Below are positions 1-7,459 of a DNA stretch of 13,800 nt, one piece after another. Location: the UHGV virus genome UHGV-0225830; one strand, written 5' to 3'. The translations under genes and the position numbers were made by a program. The stretch comes from a virus. The notes under the pieces were generated by a model. It had not been told where the DNA came from and ran no database searches. It was given only the letters and a program-made list of their open reading frames with translations. Each line of letters opens with the position of its first letter. The stretch's first letter is position 1.

Positions 1-326
1 GCGGTGGCGGCGGTGGCGGCGGTAACAGGGGTAGACTAATATTTGGTGGTGGCGGTGGTCGCCCATTCGGTGCTGGTGGGTCTTCCTCTCATATGAGTTC
101 CGGTGCAACCGCTGGTACTATTTCCGCTCCTGGTAAAGGATCTGTTGGTGAGGGGTCTCTTAGTGCATATACAGGCGGTTCGGGTGGTAATGTTGGTGCT
201 GCTGGAGGAAGATGTAATACTCAAGGTAACGGTACAGAATATAACGGCGGAGCAGCTGGTAAAGCTGTTACTGGTAATGCGCCAAGATGGGACGCAGTAG
301 GTGCAATATACGGTTCACGTGTTTAA
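1..326 (+). CDS. C-terminal part of a glycine-rich tail-fibre/adhesin-like protein (5' end lies outside the window)
   Basis: Frame 3 is open from the window edge to TAA at 324-326. Translation GGGGGGGNRGRLIFGGGGGRPFGAGG...GGSGGNVGAAGG...NGGAAGKAVTGNAPRWDAVGAIYGSRV has at least six short Gly-rich blocks separated by short loops; DNA shows GGTGGCGGC tandem units at 1-25. Resemblance to the glycine-rich motifs of T-even gp38-type adhesins is from memory, not from a search. Confidence 0.5.
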   Translation, partial: GGGGGGGNRGRLIFGGGGGRPFGAGGSSSHMSSGATAGTISAPGKGSVGEGSLSAYTGGSGGNVGAAGGRCNTQGNGTEYNGGAAGKAVTGNAPRWDAVGAIYGSRV

Positions 327-342
327 TTAAAAAAGAGGGTAG

Positions 343-2071: not shown

Positions 2072-2077
2072 TTTTTA

Positions 2078-2117
2078 GGTAGTAGGGGCTTAGCCCCTAC
2101 TACCTTTTTTATTTTTT
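2078..2117 (+). terminator. Rho-independent terminator
   Basis: Perfect 12-bp stem GGTAGTAGGGGC (2078-2089) / GCCCCTACTACC (2093-2104), loop TTA, followed by TTTTTTATTTTTT (2105-2117); sits 7 nt after the stop of the 1451-2071 gene. Confidence 0.8.
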
Positions 2118-2162
2118 CTCAGATATATATTACCTAGGGGAGAGTGAAATTTACGTTCACTC
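2117..2162 (+). promoter_or_regulatory. Copy 1 of a repeated promoter-like element plus 5'-leader hairpin
   Basis: 20-nt TCAGATATATATTACCTAGG (2119-2138) is identical to 5653-5672; then GAGAGT conserved; then a 7-bp hairpin GAGTGAA (2142-2148) / TTCACTC (2156-2162). ATG of the next gene (2191) is 53 nt after the 20-mer. Confidence 0.5.
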
Positions 2163-2190
2163 CATTAGTTATAGCCTAAAGGAGGATTAG

Positions 2191-3042
2191 ATGTATCACC
2201 CGTATTATCTCCCGCACATTCTAGCAAATAGGGACCCCGGTTATTACTACGAACAAACAAAGGGATCTTTTAATCGACTTTACATTCGTGAATTTAATAC
2301 CGACGAAATGACTGATGACCAGTATCTGGAGTATCTAAAAGACCTTTACGGTTTTTCAAAATCGAATAAAGGTGACTTTGGACGTTCCGCAGTCATTAGG
2401 GTTGGTGAATATCGTCATTTGGCTAAGCCTGTTACTTACCCTATTATTACACGCGCTTATACATCGGATAGGCAATATATTGCTGAACTAAAATTTCCTT
2501 TACGGATAGACGGGCCCCAAATTAGCGCTATAGAAGTAGAGATTCAACCAATTGCTGAAGACTATATTGAAGACTACTTCAAGAAAGCTAAAGACGTACT
2601 CGACGAGGGTTTAAGTTACTCCGAAGAAGGAACGATTTGTCTTCTCTCGTTACTCACGAAGACTTACGTCACAGCAAATTTCCGTATCTCCGATTCCAGT
2701 AACTACAATACACTTACCCCCTCTAAGACAAAACCTGTTTATTGGGACGATCGGCTAGTCGACAGACAACGCTGGCTTACTATCTTAGATAGAGTAAAAT
2801 TCGAACCCCCTAAACACACCGAAGACGATTTTATTTTATTGCACAACTTCGAACCAATTTATATTCCAACGCATTTTGATCAAGCCTTACGTCATCGGTT
2901 GAAGTATGTGTTGGAATTACGGTACGGAAAGATAAACGGACTAACCTGTTCCGGTGAATTGGGTGAAGAAGAACGCGAGAAGATAAAAATCGTGTTTGAT
3001 AAGTTGGTTGAAGATTACATTAAGAAGGAAGGGCAATTATGA
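2191..3042 (+). CDS. hypothetical protein (283 aa)
   Basis: ATG 2191 preceded by AAAGGAGG (2178-2185); stop overlaps the next start (ATGA at 3039-3042); acidic, no recognised motif. Confidence 0.75.
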   Translation: MYHPYYLPHILANRDPGYYYEQTKGSFNRLYIREFNTDEMTDDQYLEYLKDLYGFSKSNKGDFGRSAVIRVGEYRHLAKPVTYPIITRAYTSDRQYIAELKFPLRIDGPQISAIEVEIQPIAEDYIEDYFKKAKDVLDEGLSYSEEGTICLLSLLTKTYVTANFRISDSSNYNTLTPSKTKPVYWDDRLVDRQRWLTILDRVKFEPPKHTEDDFILLHNFEPIYIPTHFDQALRHRLKYVLELRYGKINGLTCSGELGEEEREKIKIVFDKLVEDYIKKEGQL

Positions 3043-3482
3043 AACCAAATACTACTAACGGCATTATGCTACTTTGTGATTCTGAAACGTTAGCAAACCG
3101 TATTCGTGGTTTGATGCAAGTACGTTGGCAGCAAAAGGTTCTCGTCGACTATGCTGCCCCGTTTGTTCACATTACCTGGTTGCCAGAAGCTAGTGATTTC
3201 AAAGAACGTATAACCACGAGAAGAATTAAAGAATGGTTATCGGCAATCATTAATAAACAGATTACCGTTATCAATTTCCAACTTTTCGGTACCGCTGAAG
3301 AACATGAAATCTTGAAACAGTGTTTAAGAGACTTGGGTCTTTCCTCTTCTGTTCGTGGTAGCTGCTATACGGCTTACTTTATCGGTTCGCTTGAACTGTT
3401 TAAGAATACGCTAATGCTTCAGCTAAAAGACGACTACAAACTTTTAGATAAAATCGATTTCGAATTCCCAGGCATGATTTAA
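3039..3482 (+). CDS. hypothetical protein (147 aa)
   Basis: ATG 3039 overlaps the upstream stop; SD-like GGAAGGG upstream; no recognised domain (a single H-x-T-x at residue 44 only, see rejected). Confidence 0.7.
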   Translation: MKPNTTNGIMLLCDSETLANRIRGLMQVRWQQKVLVDYAAPFVHITWLPEASDFKERITTRRIKEWLSAIINKQITVINFQLFGTAEEHEILKQCLRDLGLSSSVRGSCYTAYFIGSLELFKNTLMLQLKDDYKLLDKIDFEFPGMI

Positions 3483-3528
3483 GGAATCATAGCTTAATCA
3501 CCCCACCATTTACCTAAAGGAGCATTAA

Positions 3529-4044
3529 ATGTCAGTAAATATTAACATGAATCTTTATACTAAACGTGAACGTCAGATTCTGGCGAATCAACCTGGTGTT
3601 ACGACTATCGACGGTAAACCTATTGACCGTTTAAAAGTTATCGTTGCGCGAAATTGTCATGAACACGATTGGGACATTACCTACTTCCGTTGTTGTTCGG
3701 TCGCAAATGCGCTTACTCAACTCTCTAACTACCACTCAGGACCGCTATTAAAAGACTGGGTTTGGTTAGTGCCAAGAACACCCACAGCAATTGAGTATCC
3801 CTCTGGACTAGTTTATATTCGACCTGTCGCTTATCCAGAGCGTCTGAAAGAGTATCTTGAAGTTATCTGGAACCGTCCTCGTAAAGAGCTGGTGACGATT
3901 ATTAATTTACTGCAGCAGATCGAAATCCCCGGCGTTTCGAATTTGAAACTCACGTCTCGCGATATTAACCAGGCTTACTGGGAACTGGAGTGGACAGAAC
4001 CGAAATTCGAAAACACTAACCGTATTTTCTTGCACCGGGGGTAA
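3529..4044 (+). CDS. hypothetical protein (171 aa)
   Basis: ATG 3529 preceded by the extended SD ATTTACCTAAAGGAG (3508-3522), identical to 8641-8655. Confidence 0.75.
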   Translation: MSVNINMNLYTKRERQILANQPGVTTIDGKPIDRLKVIVARNCHEHDWDITYFRCCSVANALTQLSNYHSGPLLKDWVWLVPRTPTAIEYPSGLVYIRPVAYPERLKEYLEVIWNRPRKELVTIINLLQQIEIPGVSNLKLTSRDINQAYWELEWTEPKFENTNRIFLHRG

Positions 4045-4046
4045 AA

Positions 4047-4328
4047 ATGTTAGATTGGTTGTTGGGTTTAATTAACTCACGTCAACAGGAGCTTTATAAA
4101 GAAAACACGCGATTACGGCAGGAGCTTAGTAACAATCGTCAGACCAAACGACAATTAATTCGAATGGTAAAACAACAGGCGCGTTGTATACGTGATATCG
4201 ATTATCAGTATCACCGTCTGAATACCTTAGACCCAACAACAAAAGCCCTCGGTGGGACAATCGGACACGCACGTAAAGTCAGTCACGATGCGTTAGTTCG
4301 ATTAGATACAATAGAAGAGAAACTGTGA
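4047..4328 (+). CDS. hypothetical protein (93 aa), predicted coiled-coil N-terminal half
   Basis: ATG 4047 lies 2 nt after the upstream stop; heptad-like charged/hydrophobic pattern (LYKENTRLRQELSNNRQTKRQLIRMVKQQ). Confidence 0.65.
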   Translation: MLDWLLGLINSRQQELYKENTRLRQELSNNRQTKRQLIRMVKQQARCIRDIDYQYHRLNTLDPTTKALGGTIGHARKVSHDALVRLDTIEEKL

Positions 4329-4333
4329 TTAGC

Positions 4334-4358
4334 TCTCCCTCGGGAACACCGAGGGAGA
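4334..4358 (+). promoter_or_regulatory. Strong intercistronic RNA hairpin overlapping a Shine-Dalgarno sequence
   Basis: Perfect 10-bp stem TCTCCCTCGG (4334-4343) / CCGAGGGAGA (4349-4358), loop GAACA; no clean T-tract follows; the right arm contains GAGGGA, a candidate SD for the downstream gene. Confidence 0.55.
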
Positions 4359-4371
4359 TAAGGTGTTTTAC

Positions 4372-4761
4372 ATGATACGTTTAGTTTACTTAAAAAGGCG
4401 TTTGTCATTAAAAGCCCAACTGTTTGTTAACGAGAAAGTTAAAAACTGGCTGTGCGGTAAAAGGGTACAATATGTCGTTAAAGAAGGCGACTGGTATACG
4501 GAGGTTGTGACTTCCCCTAACGGTGAACTTATAAACGTTACTATTCGTGACGTTATGGTTAAGGTTGGTAGGGGAGGTGGTCGGTTGTTTGAATCGGAAA
4601 CTATAAGAGTCGCTGCTAAACAATTGAAAGATGGTCGAGTTATATTCAATGTTACCGCCCAGAAATACTACGACAATTTATTCGAGTGCCAACGAGCAAT
4701 GGACAGAATGACCCGTGAGATGCGAAGAATGCACATTACGGAGATCACAATAGGTGTTTAA
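4372..4761 (+). CDS. hypothetical protein (129 aa from ATG 4372; 132 aa if GTG 4363 is used)
   Basis: ORF 4363-4761; ATG 4372 is preceded by AGGTG (4361-4365); GTG 4363 is preceded by GAGGGA, which lies inside the hairpin. Confidence 0.65.
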   Translation: MIRLVYLKRRLSLKAQLFVNEKVKNWLCGKRVQYVVKEGDWYTEVVTSPNGELINVTIRDVMVKVGRGGGRLFESETIRVAAKQLKDGRVIFNVTAQKYYDNLFECQRAMDRMTREMRRMHITEITIGV

Positions 4762-5072
4762 TGATGGAAAATAAAATCGCGAACACATCGGCACCTGAGA
4801 ACATCGTCAATTATATTCTCAGAGGCGGGTTATTAGAAGACAACAAAGAAACGTGCGATAAACTCGTTTCTCAACTACTGCCTATTCGTTCAGAATACTG
4901 CGAAATCGTTATCTTAGGTTCCGAGTATTGTGTACGCTCTTACTGCCGACGTTTCGAAGCCCTACGTGTACCTCGTACGTTAGGTGGTGTGATCTTACTG
5001 ATCTCATCTTTTCAAGACGCCCATGTGCGTGTGGCGACCTGGATTGCCAGAGGAGGTAACAGTGGTTTTTAA
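4761..5072 (+). CDS. hypothetical protein (103 aa)
   Basis: ATG 4761 immediately follows the upstream TAA (TAATGATGG); AGGTG at 4752-4756. Confidence 0.65.
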   Translation: MMENKIANTSAPENIVNYILRGGLLEDNKETCDKLVSQLLPIRSEYCEIVILGSEYCVRSYCRRFEALRVPRTLGGVILLISSFQDAHVRVATWIARGGNSGF

Positions 5073-5370
5073 ATTGCTAGGTTTCGGAAAATGCAAAGAG
5101 TGCGCAAAGCACGAAGAATTTATCAAGCTATTAGAAGAAACAGTTGAAACACAACAAGAACTCATTTCTGAATACCGTGCGAAAACTGGTTCAGTAGAAT
5201 ATCTGACCATCCTTGTTTGTGCTATTGCTGAGTTGGGTTGTGAGGGGGAATTGCCTAAAGAGGAGATATTAAAACTATTAAAAGAAAAAACGTCGTTTTA
5301 CCGTAAAGATATTGAAGCGTGTAAACGTGAGGTTAAAAGAGCTAACTGGGAGGTTATCAATGAAGCGTGA
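5062..5370 (+). CDS. hypothetical protein (102 aa from GTG 5062; ORF track start ATG 5023 lacks an SD)
   Basis: GAGGAGG (5050-5056) sits 5 nt before GTG 5062; overlaps the upstream gene by 11 nt; paired Cys motifs (GKCKEC, ELGCEGE). Confidence 0.6.
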   Translation: MVFKLLGFGKCKECAKHEEFIKLLEETVETQQELISEYRAKTGSVEYLTILVCAIAELGCEGELPKEEILKLLKEKTSFYRKDIEACKREVKRANWEVINEA

Positions 5371-5641
5371 AACTATTGTATTTTGTCAAAACGGTGATGT
5401 AAAACAATACCGGGGCAAGAAGTTAATTCGTACGTTAGATTATCGCGAAGCAAAACGTTTCGTTGAAGAGTGTGCGTGGTTAATGCATTACGAAGGGAAC
5501 TATCGCGCCATCTTAGAAGCACCGCGTTTAGAACGTGCAGTTGCGCAGATGGCAATAGGTAATCCTAAGAACTGTTACCTGGCCCGTAAGCCCAAATACC
5601 TACAGCGTGTCTCGCTAGGCAGTTTTATTGCGGGTTTTTAA
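5360..5641 (+). CDS. hypothetical protein (93 aa from ATG 5360)
   Basis: ATG 5360 preceded by GGGAGG (5348-5353); overlaps the upstream stop (5368-5370) by 11 nt; the track start at 5312 has no SD. Confidence 0.65.
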   Translation: MKRETIVFCQNGDVKQYRGKKLIRTLDYREAKRFVEECAWLMHYEGNYRAILEAPRLERAVAQMAIGNPKNCYLARKPKYLQRVSLGSFIAGF

Positions 5642-5650
5642 TAAAAATAT

Positions 5651-5693
5651 TTTCAGATATATATTACCTAGGTGAGAGTTCAGTTACTCTCAC
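5651..5693 (+). promoter_or_regulatory. Copy 2 of the repeated promoter-like element plus 5'-leader hairpin
   Basis: TCAGATATATATTACCTAGG (5653-5672), then TGAGAGT, then an 8-bp hairpin GTGAGAGT (5672-5679) / ACTCTCAC (5686-5693); ATG 5723 is 51 nt after the 20-mer. Confidence 0.5.
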
Positions 5694-5722
5694 TTAACGA
5701 AACCATTTTAGGAGAATATACC

Positions 5723-6217
5723 ATGAACTTCACTAGACTTGATTACACTAACGAATTAGTCGACAAAGAAAAATACAAATTCACGATTGACTTGGGTTAC
5801 GGGCTGTGGGACGTAGAAAAAGATATTCTACACAAAGAATTCCGTGGGCAATTCGGTGCATTATTCTGCGCAGGATTCCGTAGAAATTCTATTGATATCG
5901 GTTATGGTGCAACACCGTATAGCGACGAAGAAATGTTTAAGCTGATAACACAGATTATCGGAACTCGTGTGGCTAAACGTTTTAATTATTCTAACGAACT
6001 TGTTTCGAAAGAACATTACAAGTTCACTGTTAGACTACCTGTTCCTCTCTTTAAAGAAGATAAGAATAGACTCTATAAAGCCCTACAAACCGAATTCGGT
6101 AAAACGCTCAAAGTAGGGTTCCGCAGTCGTAGTATCGATATCGGAATTAGCGTAGACGTGTGCAGTGACGATGACCTTTACGAATTAGTTTCGGAAGTTA
6201 TCGGAAAACACCTCTAA
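5723..6217 (+). CDS. hypothetical protein (164 aa) made of two tandem repeats of about 75 aa
   Basis: ATG 5723 preceded by AGGAG (5710-5714); the track start GTG 5672 lies inside the leader hairpin and is unlikely. The two halves align (YTNELVDKEKYKF...GFRRNSIDIG vs YSNELVSKEHYKF...GFRSRSIDIG). Confidence 0.75.
   Translation: MNFTRLDYTNELVDKEKYKFTIDLGYGLWDVEKDILHKEFRGQFGALFCAGFRRNSIDIGYGATPYSDEEMFKLITQIIGTRVAKRFNYSNELVSKEHYKFTVRLPVPLFKEDKNRLYKALQTEFGKTLKVGFRSRSIDIGISVDVCSDDDLYELVSEVIGKHL
5741..6205 (+). repeat. Intragenic tandem duplication (two units of about 74 codons, roughly 45% amino-acid identity by eye)
   Basis: Residues 7-80 and 88-161 of the 5723-6217 protein align without gaps. 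Confidence 0.7.
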
Positions 6218-6261
6218 GCGTAAATTAACGCTTCAGCTTGTAAAACCAAAAGGAAAATAAA

Positions 6262-7038
6262 ATGAAAACTATCGAGTTTAAGAATAGCAGTCTTTGGGCA
6301 TACACGCACATCATTACGAGTTTCCTGAAAAACGTTACTCCACATCTTGCTTATCAGATTTGTGGGAATGAGCTCACTATCGGTGGTTTTAACGAGGATG
6401 AATTAAAACGAGCAAAAGAGTTCATTGACGATGTTCTTCGTGGTGAAGCAACGTGTTTAGTTGCAAGTTACGTTGCTAAAGACAAAGGAAGATTAAACGT
6501 CATGGCAATTTTCAGATCGTTCTCCGAAAAAGTATACGAAGTTGAGAAGATTAGTCATACCGTTTATATTGTTTACTTTAAACGTTCGGCGGAGAAAAAC
6601 GCTGATAAAATTCTGGAGTATTTCGACTGTAACCCGGGGGAAGGTATGGATGTCTATACGCTCGGTTACGATGGGGTACCTCACCGGAATAACCTTATTC
6701 GCATTGACGAACCTTTTTCTGTCAATGACGATTCCTCGCCTATAGAGATGGTTCTGGTACACAAAGATCGTTTCGCGCATTACGACTCTGATACTATTCA
6801 ACGTGTCCTGAACAACGTTAATGTACAGTTTTCACAAACCGAGCACTTAGTACGTGCATGTCTTAGGTCTAATGGCACAACATCATTTTTCTTCGAACGT
6901 CAAACCGTTTGGCAAACTTATCTGGCTCTGATGGAAGAACTTGATAGGATCGAGCCAGTTCAGGTTGGTGCAAATTGCTTATATTGGATAAAAACAAAAG
7001 GGTTCATGAATGAAAACGCTCAATTCAGATTTGCGTGA
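6262..7038 (+). CDS. hypothetical protein (258 aa)
   Basis: ATG 6262 preceded by AAAGGA (6249-6254); overlaps the next gene by 29 nt; no recognised motif. Confidence 0.75.
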   Translation: MKTIEFKNSSLWAYTHIITSFLKNVTPHLAYQICGNELTIGGFNEDELKRAKEFIDDVLRGEATCLVASYVAKDKGRLNVMAIFRSFSEKVYEVEKISHTVYIVYFKRSAEKNADKILEYFDCNPGEGMDVYTLGYDGVPHRNNLIRIDEPFSVNDDSSPIEMVLVHKDRFAHYDSDTIQRVLNNVNVQFSQTEHLVRACLRSNGTTSFFFERQTVWQTYLALMEELDRIEPVQVGANCLYWIKTKGFMNENAQFRFA

Positions 7039-7438
7039 TTACATCCGTCAGTACCCAGCCAGTATTCCTGTACTGGCTTCGCTTACGCTTTCAGGTACTG
7101 ACGTTAACATTTTAACGGTGGAGCAGTTCCACGAGATAATAAAAACCGCCTATAACTCCATTACCGCAACGTCAGTACGTAAACGTTGCGATTATCCAGA
7201 CGGGGATTTCGGCACCGAGATGTTTACAGATTATGCGGTTGCGTTTCTGTTAGGGCGACACTGCCTCGATAAACTTAACACTGCTGTAGAAGGGGAAACA
7301 GTGACGGAAATTGTCAATGCTTGGCAGCAACGTATTCTGAACGACCCTTACTGCCGCCAAGCGTTGAAACGAATGTCCACAACGGCGATTACAAACGACC
7401 AGCGTGCTTTAGAGTTCTTTAAGCACAATTACAGCTAA
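7010..7438 (+). CDS. family B protein (142 aa), paralog of 8663-9094
   Basis: ATG 7010 preceded by AAAAGGG (6996-7002). Aligns with the 8663 protein: LN.D.R.YIR..P, YP.G..G..M, DP, MS.T in the same order. Confidence 0.75.
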   Translation: MKTLNSDLRDYIRQYPASIPVLASLTLSGTDVNILTVEQFHEIIKTAYNSITATSVRKRCDYPDGDFGTEMFTDYAVAFLLGRHCLDKLNTAVEGETVTEIVNAWQQRILNDPYCRQALKRMSTTAITNDQRALEFFKHNYS

Positions 7439-7459
7439 TTTACCAAAAGGAAAAATGAC

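What the first reader, a model, noticed from the sequence alone, without database searches (positions are those of the whole stretch)
2191..7038. Block of about 12 coupled small genes with no recognisable domains, placed between a terminator/promoter-like element and the paralog clusters
The genes at 2191, 3039, 3529, 4047, 4372, 4761, 5062, 5360, 5723 and 6262 are tightly packed, several translationally coupled, and encode 93-283 aa proteins for which I recognise no known family. Blocks like this in lytic phages commonly encode host-takeover or anti-defence functions. The block starts right after a strong terminator and a promoter-like element and contains a second copy of that element, suggesting at least two transcription units. 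This is where an undescribed function is most likely, but the sequence alone does not say what it is.
Basis: inference. Interest (0 to 1): 0.55.

Follow-up and report, generated by a model that had tools for sequence, protein, structure and literature searches.

The report
Early-gene block of a jumbo phage
The flagged stretch is a real run of small genes that an uncultured giant phage of Salmonella, E. coli and Shigella most likely switches on first after infection; some genes are shared with its relatives and others are fast-changing and unique to its lineage, and no search showed what any of them does.

Summary
All ten ORFs between 2191 and 7038 are real genes. Eight occur as called proteins on ~220-228 kb public contigs, and dN/dS is 0.06-0.22. 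They are tightly packed or overlapping and match no curated family in Pfam, NCBIfam, PADLOC or PDB sequences.

The window comes from an uncultured SPN3US-like, nucleus-forming jumbo phage. It fits the proposed genus 'Bapsvirus', known only from enterobacterial assemblies.

The repeated "promoter-like element" (2117-2138 and 5651-5672) contains TATATTAC. It matches the published early-promoter consensus of phiKZ-type phages, which is read by the virion RNA polymerase. It sits at syntenic positions in SPN3US and Erwinia phage Stratton, and a 5' stem-loop and a ribosome-binding site plus ORF follow it.

The block really runs from 2117 to about 9128 and holds 13 genes (A-M). C, F, K/M and the N-termini of D and H are conserved across the clade. 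A, B, E, G, I, J and L are restricted to this lineage. They vary by presence or absence, by duplication and by module number, even among phages with an identical C protein.

C folds confidently (pLDDT 90.6) but has no solved structural relative. L is five tandem ferredoxin-like modules and is unusually variable (dN/dS 0.43).

Early expression and a host-directed role are plausible but unproven. This is a new member of a known kind, of moderate interest.

The parts
2077..2105 (+). Intrinsic terminator that closes the upstream tail-fibre and virion gene group
   Evidence: 13-bp stem with 8 G-C pairs, a 3-nt loop, then TTTTTTATTTT
2117..2138 (+). Early-promoter element P1 (TCTCAGATATATATTACCTAGG; core TATATTAC at 2126-2133)
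   Evidence: It matches the phiKZ / 201phi2-1 / OBP early-promoter consensus (PMC7058600 Table 2; PMC7598289).
2142..2162 (+). 5'-proximal stem-loop after P1 (GAGTGAA...TTCACTC)
   Evidence: A compensatory change is seen in a relative (GAGCGAA/TTCGCTC). Stem-loops follow this element in general.
2191..3042 (+). Gene A, 283 aa, lineage-restricted ORFan, absent from some close relatives
   Evidence: A HMMER search of 1.84 billion representatives found only its own cluster, a fragment, and a partial gene 55% identical to residues 141-279.
3039..3482 (+). Gene B, 147 aa, ORFan, coupled to A by an ATGA overlap
3529..4044 (+). Gene C, 171 aa, conserved in SPN3US-like jumbo phages (SPN3US gp127, Stratton gp143; phrog_8180)
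4047..4328 (+). Gene D, 93 aa, basic (pI 9.9), probably coiled-coil (inferred from weak, below-cutoff Pfam matches); only the N-terminal 25 aa are conserved with SPN3US gp128 and Stratton gp144
4334..4357 (+). Intergenic hairpin (CTCCCTCGG...CCGAGGGAG). An extra paralogue of E is inserted at this site in relative L003.
4372..4761 (+). Gene E, 129 aa, basic (pI 10.0), ORFan; one relative carries a tandem paralogue (41% identical)
   Evidence: There is a weak PHROG hit to an 'HNH endonuclease' family (E 0.004). The PDB ubiquitin hits are repeat-summed artefacts.
4761..5072 (+). Gene F, 103 aa, conserved (SPN3US gp131; phrog_9649), four Cys
5062..5370 (+). Gene G, 102 aa, GTG start; a CxxC pair and a second Cys pair are kept in a 32%-identical allele in relatives
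5360..5641 (+). Gene H, 93 aa, basic; the N-terminal ~30 aa are conserved with SPN3US gp133
5651..5672 (+). Early-promoter element P2 (TTTCAGATATATATTACCTAGG; core at 5660-5667)
   Evidence: It is syntenic with the copy upstream of SPN3US gp135 and of Stratton gp152/153.
5669..5696 (+). 5'-proximal stem-loop after P2 (11-bp stem, -15.5 kcal/mol, z about -6)
   Evidence: The loop differs but the stem is kept in relatives.
5723..6217 (+). Gene I, 164 aa, a tandem duplication of an ~80-aa unit; relatives carry a single-unit 88-aa form
6262..7038 (+). Gene J, 258 aa, ORFan; replaced by an unrelated 157-aa gene in two relatives
7010..7438 (+). Gene K, 142 aa, paralogue of M (phrog_8484; SPN3US gp135)
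7460..8593 (+). Gene L, 377 aa, acidic. It has five tandem beta-alpha-beta-beta-alpha (ferredoxin-like) modules, C-terminal helices and a terminal CxCPxC motif. It is hypervariable.
8611..8630 (+). Weak terminator-like hairpin between L and M
8663..9094 (+). Gene M, 143 aa, paralogue of K (phrog_8484)
9101..9128 (+). Terminator-like hairpin that ends the block, upstream of the DUF7941 virion paralogues

Best explanation
The region 2117-9128 is an early-gene block of an SPN3US-like, nucleus-forming jumbo phage (family Chimalliviridae), most likely the proposed genus 'Bapsvirus'.

Proposed mechanism. The RNA polymerase carried in the virion starts transcription at two copies of a clade-specific early promoter, each of which contains TATATTAC. 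Each transcript begins with a short stem-loop and then reaches a strong ribosome-binding site. The messages encode 13 small, soluble, non-virion proteins (A-M). These are made in the host cytoplasm in the first minutes of infection.

Composition. The block has a scaffold conserved across the clade: C, F, K/M and the N-termini of D and H. Between these sit lineage-restricted genes: A, B, E, G, I, J and L, plus X1 in relatives. They turn over by cassette gain and loss, tandem duplication, changes in module number and fast divergence.

Proposed role. The most likely role is action on the host or on the start of infection: takeover, counter-defence, or setting up the persistent carrier-like infections reported for this lineage. 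L, X1 and I would be the fast-evolving host-facing part.

Shown here: the genes are real, the block is syntenic with relatives, the promoter motif matches, the stem-loop is there, the content varies, and the two folds were modelled. Inferred: early timing, dependence on the virion polymerase, and every biochemical function.
For: - **Lineage.** The proteins lie on 220-228 kb contigs from Salmonella, E. coli and Shigella assemblies. The nearest cultured relatives are Erskinevirus (57% aa) and Seoulvirus SPN3US (46% aa). This fits the 'Bapsvirus' description in PMC12768965.
- **Synteny.** The block lies between tail-fibre genes and the DUF7941 head paralogues, as do SPN3US gp125-137 and Stratton gp142-154.
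- **Promoter.** Two copies are found where 0 are expected. They sit at syntenic sites in SPN3US and Stratton. A strict 19-nt core pattern found 44 distinct copies in IMG/VR, and every contig that could be identified is an SPN3US-like jumbo phage or a ~220-225 kb relative of this window. Nearly all copies have an SD plus ORF 39-73 nt downstream on the same strand. The motif matches the published early-promoter consensus of phiKZ, 201phi2-1 and OBP (PMC7058600, PMC7598289, PMC11512511). Virion-polymerase transcription of early genes in Chimalliviridae is documented (bioRxiv 10.1101/2023.09.20.558163).
- **Stem-loop.** The 40 distinct downstream sequences fold with a mean z of -2.6.
- **Real genes.** dN/dS is 0.06-0.22.
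- **No structural or replication homology**.
- **Soluble proteins.** None has a hydrophobic stretch long enough for a membrane segment.
- **Turnover.** Searches show the gene-content differences. L has more than 250 clusters at 90% identity, against one for C. L has dN/dS 0.43. Duplications are seen within I, within L, and between K and M, L and X1, and E and its paralogue.
Against: - No transcript or timing data exist for this phage or, in the searched library, for SPN3US.
- P1 in SPN3US and Stratton is a weaker match to the motif, with 5 mismatches.
- No hit to any known takeover or anti-defence protein was found, by sequence or by fold.
- L's fold is generic, and C's has no solved relative in the PDB, so neither indicates a function.
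- L's elevated dN/dS stays below 1, so relaxed constraint explains it as well as diversifying selection does.
- The block sits among virion genes, so an assembly role cannot be excluded from position alone.
- I did not confirm that SPN3US gp125-137 are absent from its virion proteome.
Confidence: 0.55

Rival explanations
1. The block mainly encodes regulators of the phage's own programme. Candidates are factors that hand transcription over from the virion polymerase to the non-virion polymerase, help establish the phage nucleus, or control the persistent carrier-like state. On this view the proteins do not target the host.
For: C, F, K/M and the N-termini of D and H are conserved across all SPN3US-like phages, which suits a core developmental role. 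D, E and H are small and very basic (pI about 10), as nucleic-acid binders often are. The lineage is reported to persist in bacterial isolates (PMC12768965; bioRxiv 10.1101/2024.12.31.630880).
Against: No DNA-binding or polymerase-associated domain was detected. Half of the genes are dispensable across close relatives, which is unusual for core regulators.
Confidence: 0.2
2. The genes are accessory morphogenesis factors, such as tail-fibre or head assembly chaperones or low-copy virion or ejected proteins. They would be expressed with the flanking structural genes rather than early.
For: The block lies between gp38-type adhesin and tail-fibre genes and the DUF7941 head paralogues. The L profile has a very weak PDB match to a tail-fibre assembly protein (E 0.55).
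Against: A strong terminator and then an early-type promoter separate the block from the tail-fibre genes. No structural PHROG or Pfam family matches. The PDB match is not significant. Literature searches and text look-ups for SPN3US gp125, gp127, gp131 and gp135 found no mention of them as virion proteins, but the proteome tables themselves were not checked.
Confidence: 0.12
3. The variable genes are selfish or neutral passengers, such as remnants of mobile cassettes or homing-endonuclease-associated ORFs, with no role in infection.
For: Clean insertions and deletions of whole genes occur between conserved neighbours: X1, A, the replacement of J, and the extra E copy. E has a weak PHROG hit to an 'HNH endonuclease' family (E 0.004).
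Against: All of them are under purifying selection (dN/dS 0.13-0.22). No nuclease motifs or domains were found. They have strong ribosome-binding sites and are translationally coupled within the operon.
Confidence: 0.08

Closest known systems
Early operons of phiKZ-like phages (phiKZ, 201phi2-1, OBP, N1M2), driven by virion-RNA-polymerase promoters
   Same: Both have an AT-rich conserved motif with the core TATATTAC. The extended match to the 201phi2-1 consensus TTTRARR-BTATATTACDWHDGTG is close. The motif occurs in many copies per genome, always upstream of co-oriented operons that mostly encode small hypothetical proteins (PMC7058600, PMC7598289, PMC11512511).
   Different: This version is specific to the enterobacterial and Erwinia SPN3US-like clade. 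It is extended to about 22 conserved bases and is followed by a structurally conserved 5' stem-loop. I did not find that stem-loop described in the papers I read. No transcription start has been mapped for this clade.
SPN3US gp125-gp137 (JN641803 locus tags) and Erwinia phage Stratton gp142-gp154
   Same: They occupy the same position, between the tail-associated genes and the 17-member head paralogue family. Both promoter copies sit at the same two places. Orthologues of C (gp127), F (gp131) and K/M (gp135), and of the N-termini of D (gp128) and H (gp133), are present.
   Different: A, B, E, G, I, J and L gave no tblastn match in 50,697 phage records. In this lineage they replace or add to the SPN3US genes at the same slots. 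K/M is duplicated here, and L sits between the two copies.
Hyperplastic regions of small early ORFans in T4-like and other large lytic phages (own knowledge, not tested here)
   Same: Both are dense runs of small, coupled genes of unknown function. Their content differs between close relatives, and they are generally held to be host-adaptation or anti-defence cargo.
   Different: The transcription machinery differs, being the phage's own virion polymerase rather than a modified host polymerase. Part of this block is conserved at clade level rather than fully plastic.
ACT / ferredoxin-like beta-alpha-beta-beta-alpha-beta domains (for protein L)
   Different: There is no sequence signature of any of these families. 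The resemblance is at the level of a very common fold and carries no functional inference. L also has an acidic disordered linker and a terminal CxCPxC motif.

Membership tests
phiKZ-type early promoter (read by the virion RNA polymerase) | Conserved AT-rich motif that contains TATATTAC or a close variant | tested here: met
   TATATTAC lies at 2126-2133 and 5660-5667, inside a 22-nt repeat for which 0 copies are expected by chance. The consensus comes from PMC7058600 Table 2.
phiKZ-type early promoter (read by the virion RNA polymerase) | Many copies per genome, confined to the phage clade, intergenic and co-oriented with a downstream operon | tested here: met
   44 distinct copies were found. 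Every contig that could be identified is an SPN3US-like jumbo phage or a relative of this window, with 4-5 strict matches per genome. Nearly all have an SD plus ORF 39-73 nt downstream on the same strand. The copies are syntenic in SPN3US and Stratton.
phiKZ-type early promoter (read by the virion RNA polymerase) | Transcript 5' ends about 10 nt downstream; expression in the first minutes; independence from host RNA polymerase (rifampicin-resistant) | not testable with these tools
   No transcriptome of this phage or of SPN3US was found in the searched library.
SPN3US-like early block (gp125-gp137 region) | Position between the tail-associated genes and the DUF7941 head paralogues, with orthologues of gp127, gp131 and gp135 | tested here: met
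   C is 46% identical to gp127, F 49% to gp131, and M 25% to gp135 (K matched only the Stratton copy).
SPN3US-like early block (gp125-gp137 region) | Orthology of every gene in the block | tested here: not met
   A, B, E, G, I, J and L gave no tblastn match in 50,697 phage records. A has no relative outside its lineage among 1.84 billion representatives.
Known defence or anti-defence protein families | Significant sequence or fold match to a described family | tested here: not met
Virion structural proteins (DUF7941 head paralogues, tail-fibre families) | Match to the structural Pfam or PHROG families seen in the flanks | tested here: not met
   The flanking genes hit DUF7941, Gp38_N and phrog_1037/2935. 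None of A-M does.
ACT / ferredoxin-like fold (protein L) | beta-alpha-beta-beta-alpha(-beta) two-layer sandwich topology | tested here: met
ACT / ferredoxin-like fold (protein L) | Family-level sequence signature or ligand-binding residues | tested here: not met
   Pfam gave no ACT or related hit. A profile search of PDB sequences gave nothing.
Helix-hairpin-helix DNA-binding domain (protein L) | Pfam HHH match above the cut-off and a two-helix hairpin structure at the GIG-like motif | tested here: not met
   HHH_5 scored E 0.013, 16.4 bits against a cut-off of 27. In the model the IGKEDAD motif lies at a strand-to-helix junction of a ferredoxin-like unit.
Ubiquitin-like fold (protein E) | Significant match to a single ubiquitin domain | tested here: not met
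   Strong E-values occur only for polyubiquitin chains, where no single stretch passes. Single ubiquitin scores E 0.2-1.2. The match rests on a KQLxDGR motif.

The most novel reading that the evidence does not exclude
L, its paralogue X1, and possibly I could form a new family of early jumbo-phage proteins. They would be built from tandem ferredoxin-like modules whose number and sequence change quickly between otherwise near-identical phages. They would act as the phage's variable interface with host factors, for example as inhibitors or decoys of defence proteins, or as determinants of the carrier-like persistence seen for this lineage. Separately, C could be a clade-wide early protein with a previously unseen fold and a conserved takeover function.
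Probability: 0.2. Interest if true: 0.6.

Novelty: new member of a known kind. Interest (0 to 1): 0.38.

Why it matters
These phages turn up in hundreds of clinical and food isolates of Salmonella, E. coli and Shigella, yet none has been cultured (PMC12768965). What they express first is the obvious place to look for how they take over, evade defences or persist without killing the host.

This analysis turns a vague 'block of unknowns' into a defined early unit. It gives two promoters, 13 genes, a conserved core (C, F, K/M) and a short list of fast-evolving candidates (L, X1, I, A, J, G). The promoter plus stem-loop element is a usable signature for finding early genes across all SPN3US-like phages.

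The practical value lies in prioritising experiments. No new mechanism has been demonstrated.

Tried and rejected
- **Concatenated query for the representative-protein search.** The same trick worked for tblastn against phages and returned no match.
- **RNAalifold on the promoter-downstream sequences.** It gave no structure because the loops differ in length and the alignment had no gaps. I replaced it with per-sequence folding against shuffles.
- **Ubiquitin-like reading of E.** Rejected, because the strong E-values come from summing over polyubiquitin repeats.
- **Helix-hairpin-helix reading of L.** Rejected on the Pfam score and on the model.
- **The idea that B, I, J and L share one module family.** I formed it from secondary-structure patterns read by eye. 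Profile-profile comparison supports only L with X1 (93% probability); all other pairs score 2.4% or less.
- **CHEHD motif in C as a metal or catalytic site.** Rejected, because it is not conserved in relatives.
- **Antisense ORFs** (4386-4649, 5004-5210 and 6493-6801 on the minus strand). Discounted, because they lie inside genes that show plus-strand purifying selection.
- **tRNA and Rfam scans.** Nothing was found.
- **Supplement search for accession numbers**, to confirm the 'Bapsvirus' label. It found nothing, so the genus assignment is an inference from genome size, hosts and relatedness.

Full report
**1. What is in the sequence**

They encode 93-283 aa. I call them A to J.

They are tightly packed. 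A/B overlap by 4 nt (ATGA), C/D are 2 nt apart, E/F overlap by 1 nt, and F/G and G/H overlap by 11 nt each.

Eight of the ten exact protein sequences are in the public protein collection, as called genes on ~220-228 kb contigs. I and J have 98-99% identical copies in related contigs.

Across the window and four related IMG/VR contigs (84-97% nucleotide identity), pairwise dN/dS is 0.06-0.22 for each of A to J. These are therefore real genes under purifying selection.

A strong intrinsic terminator lies at 2077-2105. A 22-nt element follows it at 2117-2138 and recurs at 5651-5672. None is expected by chance.

**2. Where the window comes from**

Only the first 328 bases, a gp38-type adhesin, match cultured phages at the nucleotide level. 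They match Krischvirus at about 93% identity.

At the protein level the nearest cultured relatives of gene C are Erwinia phages phiEaH2, Stratton and Asesino (57%) and Salmonella phage SPN3US (46%).

The block's proteins occur in isolate assemblies labelled Salmonella, E. coli and Shigella, and in metagenomes. One complete E. coli genome carries the phage as a 221,873-bp 'plasmid', and an Enterobacter ludwigii record carries a 222,441-bp one.

This fits the proposed genus 'Bapsvirus'. It is described as about 226 kb, in the family Chimalliviridae, syntenic with Seoulvirus, and known only from bacterial assemblies (PMC12768965). A related preprint reports that such 'Seoul-like' persistent phages encode chimallin. 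I could not confirm the genus label by accession number, so it is an inference.

**3. The promoter-like element**

The element is TTTCAGATATATATTACCTAGG. Its core, TATATTAC, is the published early-promoter motif of phiKZ. The extended sequence is close to the 201phi2-1 and OBP consensus (PMC7058600 Table 2).

Reviews and transcript mapping place this AT-rich motif about 10 nt upstream of early transcription starts, which the virion RNA polymerase uses. In 201phi2-1 it precedes only hypothetical proteins (PMC7598289; PMC11512511).

Both copies sit at syntenic positions in SPN3US and in Stratton. In SPN3US these are upstream of gp125 and of gp135. The first copy is more diverged there, with 5 mismatches.

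A strict 19-nt core pattern found 44 distinct copies in IMG/VR. Every contig that could be identified is an SPN3US-like jumbo phage or a relative of this window, with 4-5 strict copies per genome. In nearly every case an ORF with a Shine-Dalgarno sequence starts 39-73 nt downstream on the same strand.

A stem-loop forms immediately after the motif. Its sequence varies but its structure is kept. The 40 distinct downstream sequences fold with a mean z of -2.6 against shuffles, and 75% fall below -1.5. Compensatory changes are visible among close relatives.

I conclude that these are early promoters, each with a 5'-proximal stem-loop. Timing and polymerase dependence are inferred from the motif, not measured.

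**4. True extent and synteny**

No early-promoter copy or strong terminator lies at 7038. The same arrangement continues through three more genes:
- K, 7010-7438, which overlaps J by 29 nt
- L, 7460-8593
- M, 8663-9094

It ends at a terminator-like hairpin at 9101-9128. After that come the DUF7941 virion paralogues, which are the 17-member SPN3US head paralogue family (PMC5105663).

Upstream lie gp38-type adhesins and tail-fibre genes. The block therefore corresponds to SPN3US gp125-137 and Stratton gp142-154.

No terminator separates H from the second promoter, so read-through from the first promoter is likely.

**5. Conserved core and variable genes**

Local tblastn against the SPN3US and Stratton regions found orthologues for the following:
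- C (gp127)
- F (gp131)
- K/M (gp135)
- the first ~25-30 residues only of D (gp128) and H (gp133)

A, B, E, G, I, J and L, searched as one concatenated query, gave no tblastn match in 50,697 phage records.

A full HMMER search of 1.84 billion representative proteins with A found only three things: its own cluster, a fragment, and a partial gene on a 435-bp contig that is 55% identical to its C-terminal half.

Content differs among close relatives:
- A is absent from two.
- An extra gene, X1 (175-281 aa), sits between B and C in three.
- E has a tandem paralogue (41% identical) in one.
- G has a 32%-identical allele in two. Both of its Cys pairs are kept.
- J is replaced by an unrelated 157-aa gene in two.

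Ten further contigs encode the identical C protein. All ten carry X1, which the window lacks. In them I is either a two-unit form (164 or 168 aa) or a single-unit 88-aa form. L is either about 253 aa (three modules) or 377-395 aa (five modules).

Duplication is frequent:
- I is an internal tandem duplication (40% identity, E 9e-22).
- L contains a duplicated two-module unit (37% identity, E 8e-26).
- K and M are paralogues.
- L and X1 are paralogues (hhalign probability 93%).

**6. Protein L stands out**

A homologue search returned 253 clusters at 90% identity. The 120 listed clusters range from 64% to 100% identity to the window's L, and the ones with long contigs lie on the same ~225 kb phage contigs. 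C has essentially one cluster of 376 members in this lineage.

Variation concentrates after residue 70. Gene-wide dN/dS is 0.43, against 0.22 or less for every other gene. By region it is 0.40-0.61 in the linker, the modules and the C-terminus, and 0.22 in the N-terminal domain. Either diversifying selection at a subset of sites or relaxed constraint would explain this. The data do not separate the two.

**7. Domain and structure searches**

No curated family matched A to J:
- Pfam gave nothing above cut-off.
- NCBIfam gave nothing.
- PADLOC gave nothing.
- PHROGs gave only families of unknown function.
- PDB sequence searches gave nothing, for A, B, C, E, F, I, J and K singly and for C and L as profiles.

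E's apparent hits to polyubiquitin are repeat-summed artefacts. A single ubiquitin scores E about 1.

AlphaFold2 results for the two proteins I could fold:

| Protein | Alignment | Confidence | Model | Structure search |
|---|---|---|---|---|

C is thus a confidently folded protein restricted to this clade, with no solved structural relative in the PDB.

None of A to M has a hydrophobic stretch long enough for a membrane segment. D, E and H are very basic, and L is very acidic.

**8. Interpretation**

The best-supported reading is an early-gene block of a nucleus-forming jumbo phage. Virion-polymerase promoters with a 5' stem-loop would drive 13 small soluble proteins that are made in the cytoplasm at the start of infection.

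Early Chimalliviridae transcription by the injected polymerase is documented for Goslar (bioRxiv 10.1101/2023.09.20.558163).

The mix of conserved genes and rapidly turning-over, lineage-restricted genes suggests two layers. One is a conserved early function (C, F, K/M). The other is a variable host-facing layer (L, X1, I, A, J, G). Host takeover, counter-defence, or control of the carrier-like persistence of this lineage are all compatible with the data. None is demonstrated.

The rivals cannot be excluded, and they are ranked lower for the reasons given in their entries. They are phage-internal regulators, assembly accessories, and selfish passengers.

**9. Novelty and score**

Early operons of small unknown proteins behind TATATTAC-type promoters are a known feature of phiKZ-like phages. 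The syntenic block is visible in SPN3US, although it has not been characterised there.

What this analysis adds:
- the definition of the unit in an uncultured lineage
- the conserved stem-loop after the promoter
- a clade-specific fold for C
- the modular, hypervariable L/X1/I group

That makes it a new member of a known kind, of moderate interest (0.38). It is useful for choosing genes to test and is not surprising in itself.

Noticed in passing
window 1-328 (and 343-846): The first 328 bases are the end of a gp38-type tail-fibre adhesin gene. They are about 93% identical at the nucleotide level to Krischvirus (RB49-like, T4-type) coliphages. Almost nothing else in the window matches any cultured phage DNA. 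This looks like recent exchange of a receptor-binding adhesin between a T4-like phage and this jumbo phage. A second gene with a Gp38_N domain follows at 343-846.
   Followed up: partly
whole window; The phage is found as ~220-228 kb contigs in many Salmonella, E. coli and Shigella isolate assemblies, in metagenomes, and as 'plasmids' in a complete E. coli genome (NZ_CP173450.1) and an Enterobacter ludwigii genome (NZ_CP134650.1). This matches the published 'Bapsvirus' / persistent virulent phage reports.
   Followed up: partly
window 3483-3528 (B-C intergenic): All ten public contigs that encode the identical C protein carry an extra 280-aa gene here (X1, a paralogue of L). The window has a clean 46-nt junction instead, so this genome is a deletion variant, or the others are insertion variants.
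   Followed up: yes
window 3508-3529 and 8641-8662: A 22-nt repeat, ATTTACCTAAAGGAG(C/T)ATTAAA, lies directly upstream of the start codons of C and M. The same ...CCTAAAGGAG context ends many 5' leaders behind the early promoter in related phages. It is probably a shared strong translation-initiation region, not a promoter.
   Followed up: partly
window 12647-13138 (- strand), with hairpin 12615-12642: This is the lone substantial minus-strand gene. Its product starts with a lipoprotein-type signal (…FSLAGC…). A bidirectional terminator-like hairpin flanks it. It could be a spanin component or a surface/exclusion lipoprotein next to the lysis genes. Pfam gave no match.
   Followed up: no
window 10666-11256 and 11364-12531: A GH108 endolysin with a PG_binding_3 domain is followed by a DUF1353 protein (a PHROG 'tail assembly chaperone' family) and a 171-aa gene. 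That 171-aa gene is the only other part of the window with a nucleotide match to cultured phages (75% to Salmonella phages STsAS and SPAsTU).
   Followed up: no
L025, L026, L028 and L011 (related loci): Another copy of the early promoter drives a conserved 47-aa protein in both the Bapsvirus-like contigs and SPN3US. The protein has a hydrophobic stretch long enough for a membrane segment and a Cys-rich tail (…CIDNGNSVAxCTGRG). A further copy drives a 153-aa protein with a signal peptide. So some early products are directed to the envelope.
   Followed up: no
L008 10037-12266 (about 4.4-6.6 kb beyond the window's right end): Two adjacent radical-SAM genes lie on the opposite strand just downstream of the window in a near-identical contig.
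   Followed up: no
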